Shown: in pieces, positions 41,040 to 45,855 of the stretch
How positions within the stretch are numbered: position 1 is the stretch's first letter
Layout of the letters: each line of letters opens with the position of its first letter
DNA from: the human T2T-CHM13v2.0 reference genome, Homo sapiens
DNA: 64,000 nt
Assembly (NCBI RefSeq): GCF_009914755.1
Contig: NC_060926.1
Direction: 5' to 3' (one strand)
The notes under the pieces: model-generated
The model's input: the letters and a program-made list of their open reading frames with translations, nothing else
The model's database searches: none
Told to the model about the DNA's origin: nothing
Translations under genes and position numbers: made by a program

Positions 41040-41363
41040 TTGAACTCACAGAGTAGAATGGTGGTTACAGGCACAGAGGAGGAGGAGAGTGGGGAAATGT
41101 TGGTCAAAAGACACAATCTCAGTTAGGAGGAATAAGTTCAAGAGGTGTATCCTACTACATAGTGACTATAGTTAATAACGTAGTTTATACTTGAAAATCT
41201 CTAGGAGAGTAGAATTTAAGTGTTCTCAACACACACACATACAAATTCGTAAGAATATAAGGTAATGCATATGTTAATTAGCTCAATTTAGCTATTCCAC
41301 AATGTATACATAGTTTAAAACACCATGCTGTACTCCATAAATATATATAATTTTGTTTTGTCA
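41040..41363 (+). mobile_element. Old L1M (L1MA-type) 3' end, interrupted by the L1PA insertion; it resumes at about 45762-45812
   Basis: gagtagaatggtggttac...aggaggaataagttcaaga...gtgactatagttaataa...ttccacaatgtataca...aattttg(t)tttgtca, continued by attaaaat after the second TSD copy. Confidence 0.8.
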
Positions 41364-43631
41364 TGATTTCTGTTCTTTTACATTTGCTGAGGAGTGCTTT
41401 ACTTCCAACTATGTGGTCAATTTTGGAATAAGTGTGATGTGGTGCTGAGAAGAATGTGTATTCTGTTGATTTGGGGTGGAGAGTTCTATAGATGTCTATT
41501 AGGTCTGTTTGGTGCAGAGCTGAGTTCAACTCCTGGATATCCTTGTTAACTTTCTGTCTCATTGATCTGTCTAGTGTTGACAGCAGGGTGTTAAAGTCTC
41601 CCATTATTACTGTGTGGGGGTCTAAGTCTCTTTGTAGGTCCCTAAGGACTTGCTTTATGAATCTGGGTGCTCCTGTATTGGGTGCATATATATTTAGGAT
41701 AGTTACCTCTTCTTGTGGAATTGATCCCTTTACCATTATGTAATGACCTTCTTTGTCTCTTTTGAACTTTGTTGGTTTAAAGTCTGTTTTATCAGAGACT
41801 AGGATTGCAACCCCTGCTTTTTTGTTTGTTTGTTTGTTTGTTTTCCATTTGCTTGGTAGATCTTCCTCCATCCCATTATTTTGAGCCTATTTGTGTCTCT
41901 GCATGTGAGATGGGTCTCCTGATGTGTCTTGACTCTTCATCCAATTTACCAGTCTGTCTTTTAATTGGGGCATTTAGCCAATTTACATTTAAGGTTAATA
42001 TTGTTATGTGTGAATTTGATCCTGTCATTATGATGTTAGCTGGATATTTTGCCCATTAGTTGATGCAGTTTCTTCCTAGCCTGGATGGTCTTTACAATTT
42101 AGCATGTTTTTGCAGTGGCTGGTACCAGTTGTTCCTTTCCATGTTTAGTGCTTCCTTCAGGAGCTGTTGTAAGGCAGGCCTGGTAGTGACAAAATCTCTC
42201 AGCATTTGCTTCTCCGTAAAGGATTTTATTTCTCCTTCACTTATGAAGCTTAGTTTGGCAGGATATGAAATTCTGGGTTGAAAATTCTTTTCTTTAAGAA
42301 TGTTGAATATTGGGCCTTACTCTCTTCTAGCCTTTACAGTTTCTGCCAAGAGATCAGCTGTTAGTCTGATGGGCTTCCCTTTGTGGGTAACCTGACCTTT
42401 CTCTGGCTGCCCTTAACATTTTTTCCTTCATTTCAACCTTGGTGAATCTGACAGTTATGTGTTTTGGAGTTGCTCTTCTCAAGGAGTATCTTTGTGGCGT
42501 TCTCTGTATTTCCTGAATTTGAATGTTGGCCTGCCTTGCTAGGTTGGGGAAGTTCTCCTGGGTAACATCCTGAAGAGTGTTTTCCAACTTGGTTCCATTC
42601 TCCCTGTCACTTTCAGGTATACCAATCAGACACAGAGTTGGTCTTTTCACATAGTCCCATATTTCTTGGAGGCTTTGTTCATTTCTTTTTACTCTTTTTT
42701 CTCTAAACTTCTCGCTTCATTTCATTCATTTGATCTTCAATCACTGATACCCTTTCTTCCACTTGATCGAATCGGCTACTGAAGCTTGTGCATGTGTCAC
42801 GTAGTTCTCTTGCCATGGTTTTCAGCTCCATCGGGTCATTTAAGGTCTTCTTTATACTGTTTATTCTAGTTAGCCATTCGTCTAATCTTTTTTCAAGGTT
42901 TTTAGCTTCCTCGCAATGGGTTCGAATATCCTCCTTTAGCTCGGAGAAGTTTGTTATTACCGATCTCCTGAAGCCTACTTCTGTCAACTTGTCAGAGTCA
43001 TTCTTTGTCCAGCTTTGTTCTCTTGCTGGTGAGGAGCTGCGATCCTTTGGAGGAGAAGAGGTGCTCTGGTTTTTAGAATTTTCAGCTTTTCTGCTCTGTT
43101 TTTTCCCCATCTTTGTGGTTTTATCTACCTTTGGTCTTTGATGATGGTGACCTACAGATGGGGTTTTGGTGTGGATGTCCTTTTTGTTGATGTTGCTCCT
43201 ATTCCGTTCTGTTTGTTGGTTTTCCTTCTAACACTCAGGACGCTCAGCTGCAGGTCTGTTAGAGTTTGCTGGTGGTCCACTCCAGACCCTGTTTGCCTGG
43301 GTATCACCAGCAGAGGCTGCAGATCAGCAAATATTGCAGAACAGCAAACGTTGCTGCCTGATCCTTCCTCTGGAAGCTTCATCTCAGAGGGGCACCCGGC
43401 TGTATGAGGTGTCAGTCAGCCCCTACTGGGAGGTGTCTCCCAGTTAGGCTACTTGGGGGTCAGGGACCCACTTGAAGAGGCAGTCTGTCTGTTCTCAGAT
43501 CTCAAACTCCATGCTGAGAGAACCACTGCTCTCTTCATAGCTCAATTGGAAAGGCAGAAATCACCCGTCTTCTGTGTCACTCATGCTGGGAGCTGTAGAC
43601 TGGAGCTGTTCCTATGTGACCATCTTGGAAC
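41364..43631 (-). mobile_element. Inverted 5' segment of an L1PA5/6-like element: 5' end, spliced 5'UTR, disrupted ORF1, and ORF2 endonuclease part
   Basis: ORFs 42703..43110 (MGKKQSRKAENSKNQ, ORF1p) and 41278..41871 (KAGVAILVSDK...GDFNT...YSKIDH, EN domain). The L1 5' terminus gttccaagatgg..ataggaacagctcc reads from 43631 on the minus strand. Confidence 0.93.
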
Positions 43632-45298
43632 AAAATGGAAGAACATTCCATGCTCATGGATAGGAAGAATCAATATCATGAAAATGGCCATACTGCCCAA
43701 GGTAATTTATAGATTCAATGCCATCCCCATCAAGCTACAAATGACTTTCTTCACAGAATTGGAAAAAACTACTTTAAAGTTCATATGGAACCAAAAAAGA
43801 GCCCACATTGCCAAGACAATCCTAACCAAAAAGAACAAAGCTAGAGGCATCACGCTACCTGACTTCAAACTTTACTACAAGGCTACAGTAACCAAAACAG
43901 CATGGTACTGGTACCAAAACAGAGATATACACCAATGGAACAGAACAGAGCCCTCAGAAATAATACCATACATCCGTAACCATCTGATCTTCAACAAACC
44001 TGACAAAAACAAGAAATGGGGAAAGGATTCCCTATTTAATAAATGGTGCTGGGAAAACTGGCTAGCCATATGTAGAAAGCTGAAACTGGATCCCTTCCTT
44101 ACATCTTGTACAAAAATTAATTCAAGATGGATTAAAGACTTAAATGTTAGACCTAAAAGCATAAAAACCCTAGAAGAAAACCTACGCAATATCATTCAGG
44201 ACATAGGCATGGGCAAGGACTTCATGAATAAAACACCAAAAGCAATGGCAACAAAAGCCAAAATAGACAAATGAGATCTAATTAAACTAAAGAGCTTCTG
44301 CACAGCAAAAGAAACTACCATCAGAGTGAACAGGCAACCTACAGAATGGGAGAAAATTTTTGCAATCTACCCATCTGACAAAGGGCTAATATCCAGAATC
44401 TACAAAGAACTTAAACTAATTTACAAGAAAAAAACAAGCAACCCCATCCAAAAGTGGGTGAAGGATATGAAAAAACACTTCTCAAAAGAAGACATTTATG
44501 TAGCCAACAGACACATGAAAACATGCTCATCATCACTGGCCATCAGAGAAATGCAAATCAAAACCACCATGAGACACCATCTCACACCAATTAGAATGAC
44601 AATCATTAAAAAGTCAGGAAACAACAGGTGCTGGAGAGGATGTGGAGAAATAGGGACACTTTTACACTGTTGTGGGACTGTAAACTAGTTCAAACATTGT
44701 GGAAGACAGTGTGGCGATTCCTCAAGGATCTAGAACTAGAAATACTATTTGACCCATCAATCCCATTACTGGGTATATACCCAAAGGATTATAAATCATG
44801 CTACTATAAAGACACATGCACACATATGTTTATTGCGGCACTATTCACAATAGCAAAGACTTGGAACCAACCCAAATGTCCATCAATGACAGACTGGATT
44901 AAGAAAACATGGCACATATACACTATGGAATACTATGCATCCATAAAAAAGGATGAGTTCATGTCCTTTGTAGGAACATGGATGAAGCTGGAAACCATCA
45001 TTCTGAGCAAACTATCGCAAGGACAGAAAACCACACACCGCATGTTCTCACTCATAGGTGGGAATTGAACAATGAGAACAGTTGGACACAGGGTGGGGAA
45101 CTTCACACCCAGGCCTGTTGTGGGGTGGGGGCCTGGGGGAGGGATAGCATTAGGAGAAATACCTAATGTAAATGACAAATTAATGGGTGCAGCACACCAA
45201 CATGGCACATGTATACATATGTAACAAACCTGCACATTGTGCACATGTACTCTAGAACTTAAAGTATAATAATAATAAATTTCATTTCAAAAAAAAAA
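43632..45298 (+). mobile_element. Sense 3' segment of the same L1PA5/6-like element: ORF2 C-terminal part (with stops and frameshifts), 3'UTR and poly(A)
   Basis: [15 protein letters not shown]...; [14 protein letters not shown] zinc-knuckle region. 3'UTR ggagaaatacctaatgtaaatgac...caccaacatgg. Confidence 0.93.
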
Positions 45299-45763
45299 CA
45301 AATTTAGGTTATTCTTATTTCAGAATATGAGCTCACTCACCCACACAGATGCTAGTTCTTGAATTTTGTTTGTACTAAATGAAAAACAACTTATTGGTTG
45401 GTTGACACATTTACCCCACTGGGGCCTGAATTCAGCCCCTTTTAGGAGGGACAGTTTCAGAATATGCCATGAGGTGTCTGCGGTGTAGATCCATGCTCTC
45501 TGCAAATAGGGGCAGCGGCTCTATAGCTGAGTCCTTTCCCAGACTCCTTTAAGAAATTTCAACAGGCTTTCACAGAGCTATGCCTGCTCCAAAATATACA
45601 TTGACATAATAAACCACAATGGATTTAAGTGTTTAAAGTCAGAAATACACTTTTAAAAATAAGTACTTCAGTTGGCCAGTGGAGCAGTAATACCTGGATG
45701 CTAAATTGAATTTGTTTAGAATAAACCACAGAGTAAACTTTAAAAAAAATGAAAATAAAAAAA
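45299..45763 (+). other. Putative L1 3' transduction with its own AATAAA (45720-45725) and A-rich tail (45742-45763)
   Basis: Non-L1 sequence between the L1 poly(A) and a second A tail, which is followed by the TSD copy aattttgatttgtca (45762-45776). Confidence 0.75.
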
Positions 45764-45855
45764 TTTTGATTTGTCAATTAAAATATACATTTATAAAGAA
45801 AAAATAATAAAACACTTTCCACATCATAGTTTATCTATAGAAAATGTGTCACCTT

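What the first reader, a model, noticed from the sequence alone, without database searches (positions are those of the whole stretch)
41349..45776. One L1 insertion combining three rearrangements: spliced 5'UTR, 5' inversion with large deletion, and 3' transduction
Seen: a 15-bp direct repeat with 14/15 identity (aattttgttttgtca at 41349-41363; aattttgatttgtca at 45762-45776) brackets, in order, a minus-strand L1 running from the ORF2 EN domain back to the extreme 5' end, a plus-strand ORF2 C-terminal part with 3'UTR and poly(A), about 440 bp of non-L1 DNA, and a second A tail. The host L1M 3' end reads through correctly (...tttgtca|attaaaat) once the insert is removed. Established: twin-priming inversions, SpIREs and 3' transductions are each known L1 outcomes. 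Inference: all three arose in one retrotransposition event from a spliced, read-through RNA. A repeat masker would probably report this as several unrelated fragments.
Basis: partly seen in the sequence, partly recalled or inferred. Interest (0 to 1): 0.8.

Follow-up and report, generated by a model that had tools for sequence, protein, structure and literature searches.

The report
Spliced, inverted L1 with borrowed tail
An old, dead L1 jumping-gene copy in a PARD3B intron carries three known copying accidents at once (a spliced leader, a flipped front half and an extra tail copied from chromosome 8), which makes it a tidy example but not a new kind of element.

Summary
A 15-bp target-site duplication (14/15) occurs only at 41349-41363 and 45762-45776 (expected 0.03 matches per window). 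It brackets 4,398 bp:
- a minus-strand L1 piece (ORF2 endonuclease, ORF1, 5'UTR) that reaches the normal L1 5' terminus;
- a plus-strand ORF2 C-terminal part with 3'UTR and A10;
- 443 nt of non-L1 DNA;
- a second A tail.

The 5'UTR lacks exactly the roughly 0.5-kb GT...AG intron present in unspliced relatives, which is the SpIRE97/622 splice. The locus is not in the published SpIRE table.

The left junction shows 6/7 complementarity between the target end and the L1 RNA (chance 0.4%), as twin priming predicts. About 1.72 kb, including the whole RT domain, is missing. Both L1 pieces are equally diverged from the same reference copies (7.5% and 7.2%).

The 443 nt has one other genomic copy, on chromosome 8 (27/442 mismatches). 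Homology starts right after the L1 A-run and ends 16 nt after the only AATAAA, where chr8 encodes no A-run. The extension is therefore RNA-derived.

This assembly has no L1 at the chr8 site, so "3' transduction" stays an inference from a lost source. Primate orthologues could not be checked. Each process is known; interest is low to moderate.

The parts
41349..41363 (+). 5' copy of the target-site duplication (AATTTTGTTTTGTCA). Its last 7 nt (TTTGTCA) are the inferred internal primer.
   Evidence: 2 matches in the window, 0.03 expected
41364..42028 (-). Inverted L1 piece: ORF2 start and endonuclease domain. It is cut off at ...AGAAATCA, just before L1's TAACAAAC.
   Evidence: Pfam Exo_endo_phos E=5.6e-10 on the minus-strand frame; alignment to 8 genomic L1 copies
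42092..43110 (-). Inverted L1 piece: ORF1 remnant, broken by stops.
   Evidence: Pfam Transposase_22 E=3.1e-48 and Tnp_22_trimer; ORF list
43111..43540 (-). Inverted L1 piece: 5'UTR downstream of the splice ('exon 2').
   Evidence: 92.9-93.7% identity to 5 unspliced genomic L1 5'UTRs (one search lists 92-94% for more places); junction read
43541..43628 (-). Inverted L1 piece: first about 88 nt of the 5'UTR ('exon 1'). It ends at the usual L1 5' terminus (CCAAGATGG). The splice junction lies between 43541 and 43540.
43629..43630 (.). Inversion junction: the dinucleotide AA could come from either piece (2-nt microhomology).
43631..45288 (+). Direct L1 piece: ORF2 C-terminal part (frame ends near 45068) and 3'UTR with L1's own AATAAA.
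   Evidence: 91-94% identity to genomic L1 copies over the whole length; 3' ends compared
45289..45298 (+). First A-run (A10), at the end of the L1 proper.
45299..45741 (+). 443-nt non-L1 extension copied from chromosome 8 (G000:C8:56607851-56608297, minus strand). AATAAA lies at 45720-45725.
   Evidence: The only other genomic match; exact homology boundaries; 27/442 mismatches
45742..45761 (+). Second, non-templated A-rich tail (17 A of 20).
   Evidence: At this point chr8 reads TTCATTTTAACG, not A's
45762..45776 (+). 3' copy of the target-site duplication (AATTTTGATTTGTCA).
   Evidence: host-repeat read-through

Best explanation
This is one endonuclease-dependent L1 retrotransposition event of an L1PA5-like element into the 3' end of an older L1, inside a PARD3B intron.

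The inferred template was one L1 transcript that:
- started at the normal L1 5' end;
- had lost about 0.5 kb of its 5'UTR by GU98-99/AG620-621 splicing (SpIRE97/622 type);
- read through L1's own poly(A) signal into 443 nt of chr8 flank;
- was cleaved 16 nt after the first canonical AATAAA and polyadenylated.

Integration went by twin priming:
- The nicked bottom strand primed on the poly(A) tail. It copied the extension and 1.66 kb of L1, stopping in ORF2.
- The top-strand 3' end (...TTTGTCA) annealed to UAACAAA at the end of the endonuclease-coding region. It primed a second cDNA that ran 2.27 kb to the RNA 5' end.
- Joining the two cDNA ends at a 2-nt AA overlap produced the 5' inversion. 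About 1.72 kb, including the whole RT domain, was never copied.

Shown: the structure, the splice, the junction complementarity, the equal divergence of the parts and the RNA origin of the extension. Inferred: that one RNA molecule served both primers, and that a source L1 once sat at the chr8 site.
For: - **TSD.** The 15-bp repeat (14/15) occurs only at the two outer borders of the composite; 0.03 matches are expected. The host repeat is continuous across the site. Both TSD copies share a G at position 7 where most other host-family copies shown have T, so they are duplicates of one host sequence.
- **Splice.** 5 of 5 unspliced relatives carry GT...AG exactly where the window joins GAG|CT. 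This matches Larson's definition.
- **Twin priming.** The L1 sense strand reads ...AGAAATCA, then the reverse complement of the TSD, TGACAAA. Eight reference copies continue TAACAAA there (7 of 8; L025 reads TAAGAAA), a 6/7 match. Only 26 of 6,156 positions (0.42%) in a reference L1 match that well.
- **5' terminus.** The inverted piece ends at a terminus that at least 5 of the 7 full-length copies shown share within about 2 nt.
- **Same age and cohort.** Gap-free distances from the window to the references are 7.54% for the inverted part (9 references), 7.20% for the direct part (7 references) and 6.90% for the 5'UTR. Reference-to-reference distances are 7.18%, 7.15% and 6.31%. The extension differs from chr8 by 6.1%. 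The TSD copies differ at 1 of 15 positions.
- **Subfamily.** One reference, L025, is the locus Larson et al. label L1PA5; the flank sequences are identical by eye.
- **RNA origin of the extension.** It has one other genomic copy. Homology begins at the base after A10 and ends at GAGTAAACTTT, 16 nt after the only AATAAA in the chr8 stretch. chr8 has no A-run there.
- **chr8 boundary.** It reads TTGT/A on the nicked strand, 4 of 5 positions of the L1 endonuclease motif (motif quoted).
Against: - No L1PA lies next to the 443-nt stretch at chr8 in this assembly. The nearest L1 is an old copy (76-80% identity) about 2.2 kb away.
- No sibling insertion carries the same chr8 sequence; there are only 2 genomic matches.
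- The internal gap (about 1.72 kb) is far above the median of 14.5 bp reported for twin-priming deletions. The inverted arm (2.27 kb) is far above the reported median of 0.54 kb (passages of a tumour-genome preprint). This is an extreme case.
- The window's own nick site reads AATT/A, a weak match to the motif.
- The two L1 pieces do not overlap, so one RNA cannot be told from two RNAs of the same subfamily.
- The age test resolves only differences above roughly 1.3% divergence (my estimate from the site counts).
- No orthologous empty site was examined.
Confidence: 0.78

Rival explanations
1. The event and the twin priming are as in the best explanation, but the 443-nt extension is not a read-through. 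Reverse transcription began on an unrelated polyadenylated chr8 transcript or fragment. It then switched to the poly(A) end of a spliced L1 RNA, or the two RNAs were ligated beforehand. The result would be an L1-then-foreign-RNA chimera.
For: - chr8 has no L1 next to the copied stretch.
- The stretch ends at a canonical AATAAA site that any chr8 transcript could use.
- Template switching and RNA ligation are accepted routes to L1 chimeras (passages).
- A10 between the parts could be the part of an L1 poly(A) tail copied after a switch.
Against: - The layout (L1 3' end, short A-run, unique DNA, AATAAA, second tail, all inside one TSD) is exactly that of a 3' transduction. Transductions are common: 466 of 5,311 polymorphic L1 insertions.
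- The catalogued chimeras carry the foreign RNA 5' of the L1, not 3'.
- There are no retrocopies of a chr8 transcript elsewhere.
- No ORF of 120 aa or more that I recognised as a gene lies within the 30 kb examined around the chr8 stretch (L003 and L054; not scanned against Pfam).
- By recalled hg38 coordinates the site is intergenic (plus recall).
- The chr8 boundary resembles an L1 endonuclease site.
Confidence: 0.13
2. One integration event, but the two primers used two different L1 RNA molecules of the same subfamily. The spliced 5'UTR would belong to one RNA and the read-through tail to another.
For: - The two pieces share no L1 positions, so identity of the template cannot be tested.
- A 1.72-kb uncopied gap is unusual for one template.
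Against: - Both pieces have the same distance to the same cohort.
- Twin priming as described uses the same L1 RNA for both primers (passage).
- L1 cis-preference (recalled) argues for one RNA.
- Nothing in the sequence requires a second RNA.
Confidence: 0.05
3. An ordinary spliced L1 insertion was rearranged later at the DNA level by an inversion of its 5' part plus a deletion.
For: An inversion of L1 positions 1..b together with loss of b+1..z-1 gives the same order of parts.
Against: - One inversion breakpoint would have to fall exactly at the TSD/L1 border.
- The new junction would have to show 6/7 complementarity to the target end by chance (0.42%).
- Two rearrangements are needed instead of one known mechanism.
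Confidence: 0.03
4. Two unrelated L1 insertions, nested or adjacent, sit between a chance 15-bp repeat.
For: A second, independent L1 insertion lies only 62 bp downstream, so the site has been hit more than once.
Against: - The minus-strand piece has no 3' end, no poly(T) and no TSD of its own. It stops exactly at the shared TSD.
- The 15-mer occurs once in other copies of the host repeat and is not expected by chance.
- The two pieces have equal divergence.
Confidence: 0.01

Closest known systems
SpIRE97/622 (spliced integrated retrotransposed element; Larson et al. 2018, PMC5860796)
   Same: - Precise loss of the 5'UTR intron between GU98-99 and AG620-621.
- TSD and poly(A) hallmarks.
- L1PA5-like age, inside the published L1PA1-L1PA6 range.
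   Different: - It is not among the 116 listed loci. There is no chr2 row near this place, and 'PARD3B' has 0 hits in the 8 supplementary files.
- The listed SpIREs are mostly uninverted, about 5.5 kb long. Two rows note an inversion and a few note a transduction; no row notes both.
- This copy is inverted, lacks 1.72 kb and carries a 443-nt extension.
Twin-priming L1 5' inversion with internal deletion (Ostertag and Kazazian 2001; paper not held, recalled; mechanism passages read)
   Same: - Inverted 5' piece and direct 3' piece inside one TSD.
- Complementarity between target end and L1 RNA at the inner priming site.
- Short microhomology at the inversion junction.
   Different: - The gap is about 1.72 kb, against a reported median of 14.5 bp.
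- The inverted arm is 2.27 kb and reaches the RNA 5' end, so there is no 5' truncation. The reported median arm is 0.54 kb and 5' deletion is usual.
L1 3' transduction (partnered)
   Same: - Unique DNA lies between the L1's own A-run and a second, non-templated tail, inside the TSD.
- It maps to one other locus.
- It ends 16 nt after AATAAA.
   Different: The parent locus has no L1 in this assembly. The source element must have been lost or never fixed, if it existed.
L1 chimeric insertions by template switching or RNA ligation (U6/L1 and others; Law and Burns, PMC13174262)
   Same: Two RNA-derived parts in the same orientation inside one TSD.
   Different: In the catalogued chimeras the foreign RNA lies 5' of a truncated L1. 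Here it lies 3' of a complete L1 3' end with its own A-run.

Membership tests
Endonuclease-dependent L1 insertion (TPRT) | Target-site duplication flanking the whole insert | tested here: met
   15 bp, 14/15 identical; the only 2 matches in the window against 0.03 expected. The host repeat is continuous across the site.
Endonuclease-dependent L1 insertion (TPRT) | Poly(A) tail directly before the 3' TSD | tested here: met
   45742-45761 holds 17 A of 20. It is not encoded at chr8.
Endonuclease-dependent L1 insertion (TPRT) | Nick site resembling TTTT/AA | tested here: inconclusive
   The site reads AATT/A on the nicked strand. The same variant appears once in Larson's table.
SpIRE97/622 | Exact removal of the intron bounded by GU98-99 and AG620-621, judged against unspliced L1s | tested here: met
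   Window...CCAATTGAG|CTATGAAGAG. Five of 5 unspliced relatives...CTGAG|GTAC ... GACAG|CTTTGAAGAG.
SpIRE97/622 | Over 95% identity to the 100-nt L1.3 junction probe (Larson's operational cut-off) | not testable with these tools
   No L1.3 sequence is held. The locus is absent from their list, as expected if it falls below the cut-off.
Twin-priming inversion | Inverted upstream L1 piece joined to a direct downstream piece, inside one TSD | tested here: met
Twin-priming inversion | Complementarity between the target 3' end and L1 RNA at the TSD-proximal junction | tested here: met
   6/7 (TTTGTCA against UAACAAA); chance 0.42%
Twin-priming inversion | Microhomology at the inversion junction | tested here: inconclusive
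   Only 2 nt (AA) are shared.
L1 3' transduction | Unique non-L1 DNA after the L1 3' end, followed by a poly(A) signal and a second non-templated tail, inside the TSD | tested here: met
L1 3' transduction | The extra DNA maps to a single other locus | tested here: met
   G000:C8:56607851-56608297, 93% by BLAST; 27/442 mismatches
L1 3' transduction | A source L1 lies directly upstream of that DNA at the parent locus | tested here: not met
   This assembly has none. Unique DNA and an Alu lie upstream, and an old L1 sits about 2.2 kb away. A lost or unfixed source would explain this, but it was not shown.

The most novel reading that the evidence does not exclude
The 443-nt tail is not a read-through. 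It is the 3' end of an independent chr8 transcript joined to the poly(A) end of a spliced L1 RNA by template switching or RNA ligation. That would be an 'L1 first, foreign RNA last' chimera, a layout absent from the chimera catalogue read here, in which the foreign RNA lies 5' of the L1. Some insertions now scored as 3' transductions with no source element could then be chimeras of this type.
Probability: 0.13. Interest if true: 0.55.

Novelty: new member of a known kind. Interest (0 to 1): 0.3.

Why it matters
The locus is useful mainly as an annotation and teaching case. A repeat masker will split it into unrelated fragments, whereas the TSD, the splice and the junctions show a single event.

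It also marks three limits of current catalogues:
- The published SpIRE list (116 loci, found with a probe at over 95% identity) misses this copy. By coarse coordinates it also misses at least 8 of 14 similar spliced copies fetched here.
- Twin priming can leave a kilobase-scale gap, and its second cDNA can run to the RNA 5' end.
- A transduced stretch can outlive its source element.

No effect on PARD3B is shown or suggested.

Tried and rejected
- **PLAG1 guess.** I guessed from memory that the chr8 stretch might be the end of the PLAG1 3'UTR. No ORF of 120 aa or more that looks like a zinc-finger exon lies within 15 kb upstream (judged by eye, not scanned against Pfam). A Pfam anchor on PENK plus recalled hg38 coordinates puts the site between CHCHD7 and SDR16C5. 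The guess was dropped; the mapping rests on recall.\n- **TTTCATTT motif.** The L1 tail carries TTTCATTTC before A10, and chr8 reads TTTCATTTT just after the cleavage site. I considered a link. Related L1 copies often have T-containing 3' ends such as TATAATTTAAAAA, and the motif looks like a local ATTTC duplication. I treat the resemblance as chance.\n- **BLAST identities.** They suggested the inverted piece is older (88-91.5% against 91-94% for the direct piece). The gap-free distances are equal; the difference comes from small indels.\n- **A propagating spliced lineage.** Spliced-to-spliced distances (7.3, 6.9, 6.8%) equal spliced-to-unspliced distances (7.2, 7.1, 6.5%). There is no sign of such a lineage.\n- **Pfam on the direct piece.** No family was found in the three plus-strand ORF2 C-terminal frames. 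Their identity rests on DNA homology to other L1 copies.\n- **Things not available.** Earlier findings were not open. Ostertag and Kazazian 2001 and Szak 2003 are not held. No primate genomes or Dfam consensus are available.
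Full report
**Observation**

AATTTTGTTTTGTCA lies at 41349-41363 and AATTTTGATTTGTCA at 45762-45776. With up to one mismatch these are the only 2 matches in the 64-kb window on either strand. Dinucleotide-preserving shuffles give a mean of 0.03, and 0 of 100 reach 2.

Between the two copies lie 4,398 bp, in this order:
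- a minus-strand L1 piece, 41364-43628;
- a plus-strand L1 piece, about 43629-45288;
- A10, 45289-45298;
- 443 nt of non-L1 DNA, 45299-45741;
- an A-rich tail, 45742-45761.

Pfam finds the L1 endonuclease fold (Exo_endo_phos, E=5.6e-10) and the ORF1 domains (Transposase_22, E=3.1e-48; Tnp_22_trimer) in minus-strand frames. It finds nothing in the three plus-strand ORF2 C-terminal frames. Their identity therefore rests on 91-94% DNA identity to other genomic L1 copies over the full length.

**Host site**

The left flank belongs to an old, abundant repeat: 3,988 first-look candidates, of which 40 were scored (39 besides the window itself) at 76-82% identity. I recall its sequence as an L1M-type 3' end, but I did not test the family name.

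In 19 fetched copies the motif AATTTTTATTTGTCA occurs once. In 6 of them (L035, L039, L043, L046, L048, L050) it is followed by ATTAAA or ATTAGA. The window's right flank reads ...TTTGTCA|ATTAAAAT in the same way. Both TSD copies share a G at position 7 where most of those copies have T. They are therefore duplicates of one host sequence and not two host repeats.

**The splice**

I searched the window's own assembly with the minus-strand 5'UTR (43625-43080). Of 5,267 candidates, 40 were scored. Of the 39 non-self places:
- 16 are collinear across the junction;
- 23 match only from query position 84-89 onward;
- 4 of those 23 have a separately reported match to the first 85-88 nt lying 506-509 nt further upstream.

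Of 19 loci fetched, 14 are collinear (spliced) and 5 are unspliced. All 5 unspliced copies read TTTCCAA(C/A)TGAG|GTAC ... CTG(A/C)CAG|(C/T)TTTGAAGAGAG. The window reads TTTCCAATTGAG|CTATGAAGAGAG.

This is the G98U99/A620G621 event that Larson et al. call SpIRE97/622 (PMC5860796; passages). Their S1 Table was read whole. Its chr2 rows lie at 20.9, 48.1, 49.1, 76.9, 77.1, 96.4, 131.4, 161.5 and 193.0 Mb. 'PARD3B' has 0 occurrences in the 8 supplementary files. This copy is therefore not in their list of 116. That fits their criterion of over 95% identity to a probe based on L1.3.

**The inversion**

Read in L1 sense, the inverted piece ends ...AACAGAAATCA and is followed by the reverse complement of the TSD, TGACAAAACAAAATT. 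Eight reference copies continue ...AGAAAT(C/T)A TAACAAACTG at that point (7 of 8; L025 reads TAAGAAA).

So the top-strand 3' end of the cut target (TTTGTCA) can pair with UAACAAA in the L1 RNA at 6 of 7 positions. Only 26 of 6,156 positions (0.42%) in a reference L1 match that well. This is the 'spurious complementarity' that the twin-priming model requires for the second primer (mechanism passage).

At the other end, the inverted piece stops at ...CCATCTTGG(AA). At least 5 of the 7 full-length relatives shown end within about 2 nt of the same place (L025, L029, L031 and L033 exactly; L027 with mismatches). The second cDNA therefore reached the RNA 5' end. The direct piece starts (AA)CAAAATGGAAGAAC in ORF2, and the AA at 43629-43630 could belong to either piece.

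I used the unspliced copy L029 as a ruler (element at locus positions 429-6590). The inner priming site is element position about 2,788. The direct piece begins at about 4,510. About 1.72 kb was never copied. In L029 that stretch holds the whole RVT_1 domain (E=8.9e-43).

A later DNA inversion would need a breakpoint exactly at the TSD border and would have to produce the 6/7 match by chance. Nested independent insertions cannot explain a minus-strand piece that has no 3' end and stops at the shared TSD.

**Same element, same age?**

BLAST identities at first suggested that the inverted piece is older: 88-91.5% against 91-94%. Gap-free distances on MAFFT alignments to the same reference elements remove the difference:

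| Region | Window to references | Reference to reference |
|---|---|---|
| Inverted ORF1/endonuclease part | 7.54% (9 references) | 7.18% |
| Direct ORF2 C-terminal/3'UTR part | 7.20% (7 references) | 7.15% |
| 5'UTR exon 2 | 6.90% (9 references) | 6.31% |

The references had been chosen by similarity to the 5'UTR. The direct piece falling inside their own spread is thus a real test of shared subfamily. By my estimate its resolution is about 1.3% divergence.

One reference, L025, has flanks identical by eye to 'Clone 3; PA5; SpIRE(97/622)-3' in Larson's S1 Data. Larson et al. date L1PA6 to about 27 million years ago, which sets the order of magnitude.

**The 3' extension**

A whole-genome search with 45299-45741 gives one other place, G000:C8:56607851-56608297 on the minus strand. 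Homology begins at the base after A10 (chr8 ...CATTGT|ACAAATTTAAG). It ends at GAGTAAACTTT, after which chr8 reads TTCATTTTAACG where the window has its A tail.

The two copies differ at 27 of 442 aligned sites (6.1%; 4.3% outside CpG) and have 6 gap columns. That is the same divergence as among the L1 parts. The only AATAAA in the chr8 stretch ends 16 nt before the end of homology.

The extension is therefore a reverse-transcribed copy of an RNA cleaved and polyadenylated at that site. It was made at about the same time as the L1 insertion, and the direction is chr8 to chr2.

This assembly has no L1PA next to the chr8 stretch. Upstream lie unique DNA and an Alu, and an old L1 (76-80% identity) sits about 2.2 kb away. 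No other insertion carries the stretch.

The layout is that of a 3' transduction: L1 3' end, short A-run, flank, first canonical signal, tail. The chr8 boundary reads TTGT/A on the nicked strand, 4 of 5 positions of the endonuclease motif quoted. Transductions are common: 466 of 5,311 polymorphic L1 insertions.

I therefore read this as read-through from a source L1 that was never fixed or was later lost. I give that reading about 0.8 relative to a chimera of two RNAs made by template switch or ligation. The source itself is not shown.

**Comparison with what is known**

Each process is established. Larson's table already has SpIREs with a transduction (for example number 13) and with an inversion (numbers 52 and 100), but no row with both. 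A long-read population study lists L1 conformations that combine twin priming with transductions (legend of Extended Data Fig. 5).

This copy stands out in degree. In a tumour-genome preprint the median twin-priming deletion is 14.5 bp, and the median arms are 1.51 kb (direct) and 0.54 kb (inverted). Here the gap is 1.72 kb. The inverted arm is 2.27 kb and is complete at its 5' end.

It is a new member of known kinds and not a new kind.

**What was not done**

- No primate orthologues, Dfam consensus or repeat annotation were available.
- The two founding papers on twin priming and on related transductions are not held and are cited from memory.
- The gene context of the chr8 site rests on a PENK anchor plus recalled hg38 coordinates.

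Noticed in passing
window 45839-46675: A second, independent twin-primed L1 lies 62 bp downstream of the first insertion. It has a perfect 17-bp TSD (AGAAAATGTGTCACCTT at 45839-45855 and 46659-46675). Its inverted ORF2 piece is 45856-46135 and its direct 3' piece with A tail starts at about 46136. Judged against the first L1, only a gap of roughly 65 nt separates the two pieces (D1, D2, D7, I1, I2).
   Followed up: partly
L005-L017, L019 (for example G000:C18:61766936-61767479, C5:43306569-43307103, C20:32992259-32992803): Fourteen fetched L1 copies share the same 97/622 splice; 16 of the 39 scored non-self places do. One is Larson's SpIRE(97/622)-3, confirmed by its flank, and one probably their number 87. 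At least 8 have no row in their table within 10 Mb on the same chromosome. That comparison uses assembly offsets I recalled and did not compute. Older SpIREs look under-counted. They do not cluster as a lineage.
   Followed up: partly
L024 about 3543-4220 (G000:C18:61761000-61768000): This spliced relative carries a younger L1 3' end with an A tail nested in its ORF2. The nesting point is almost the same position (AGAAATC|TTAACAAAC) as the inner priming site of the window's element.
   Followed up: no
L003 4852-5298 versus window 45299-45741: The chr8 parent keeps 10 CpG dinucleotides, while the chr2 retrocopy has 2. Nine of the 27 mismatches lie in CpG columns.
   Followed up: no
window 45279-45288 and L003 about 4840-4851 (minus strand): TTTCATTTC sits before the L1's A10. 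TTTCATTTT sits just past the chr8 cleavage site. I judged the resemblance to be chance after seeing T-containing 3' ends in related L1 copies.
   Followed up: partly
window 41821-41843: A (TTTG)n microsatellite of 5.8 copies lies inside the inverted ORF2 endonuclease region. It is one of the small indels that lowered the BLAST identity of this piece.
   Followed up: no
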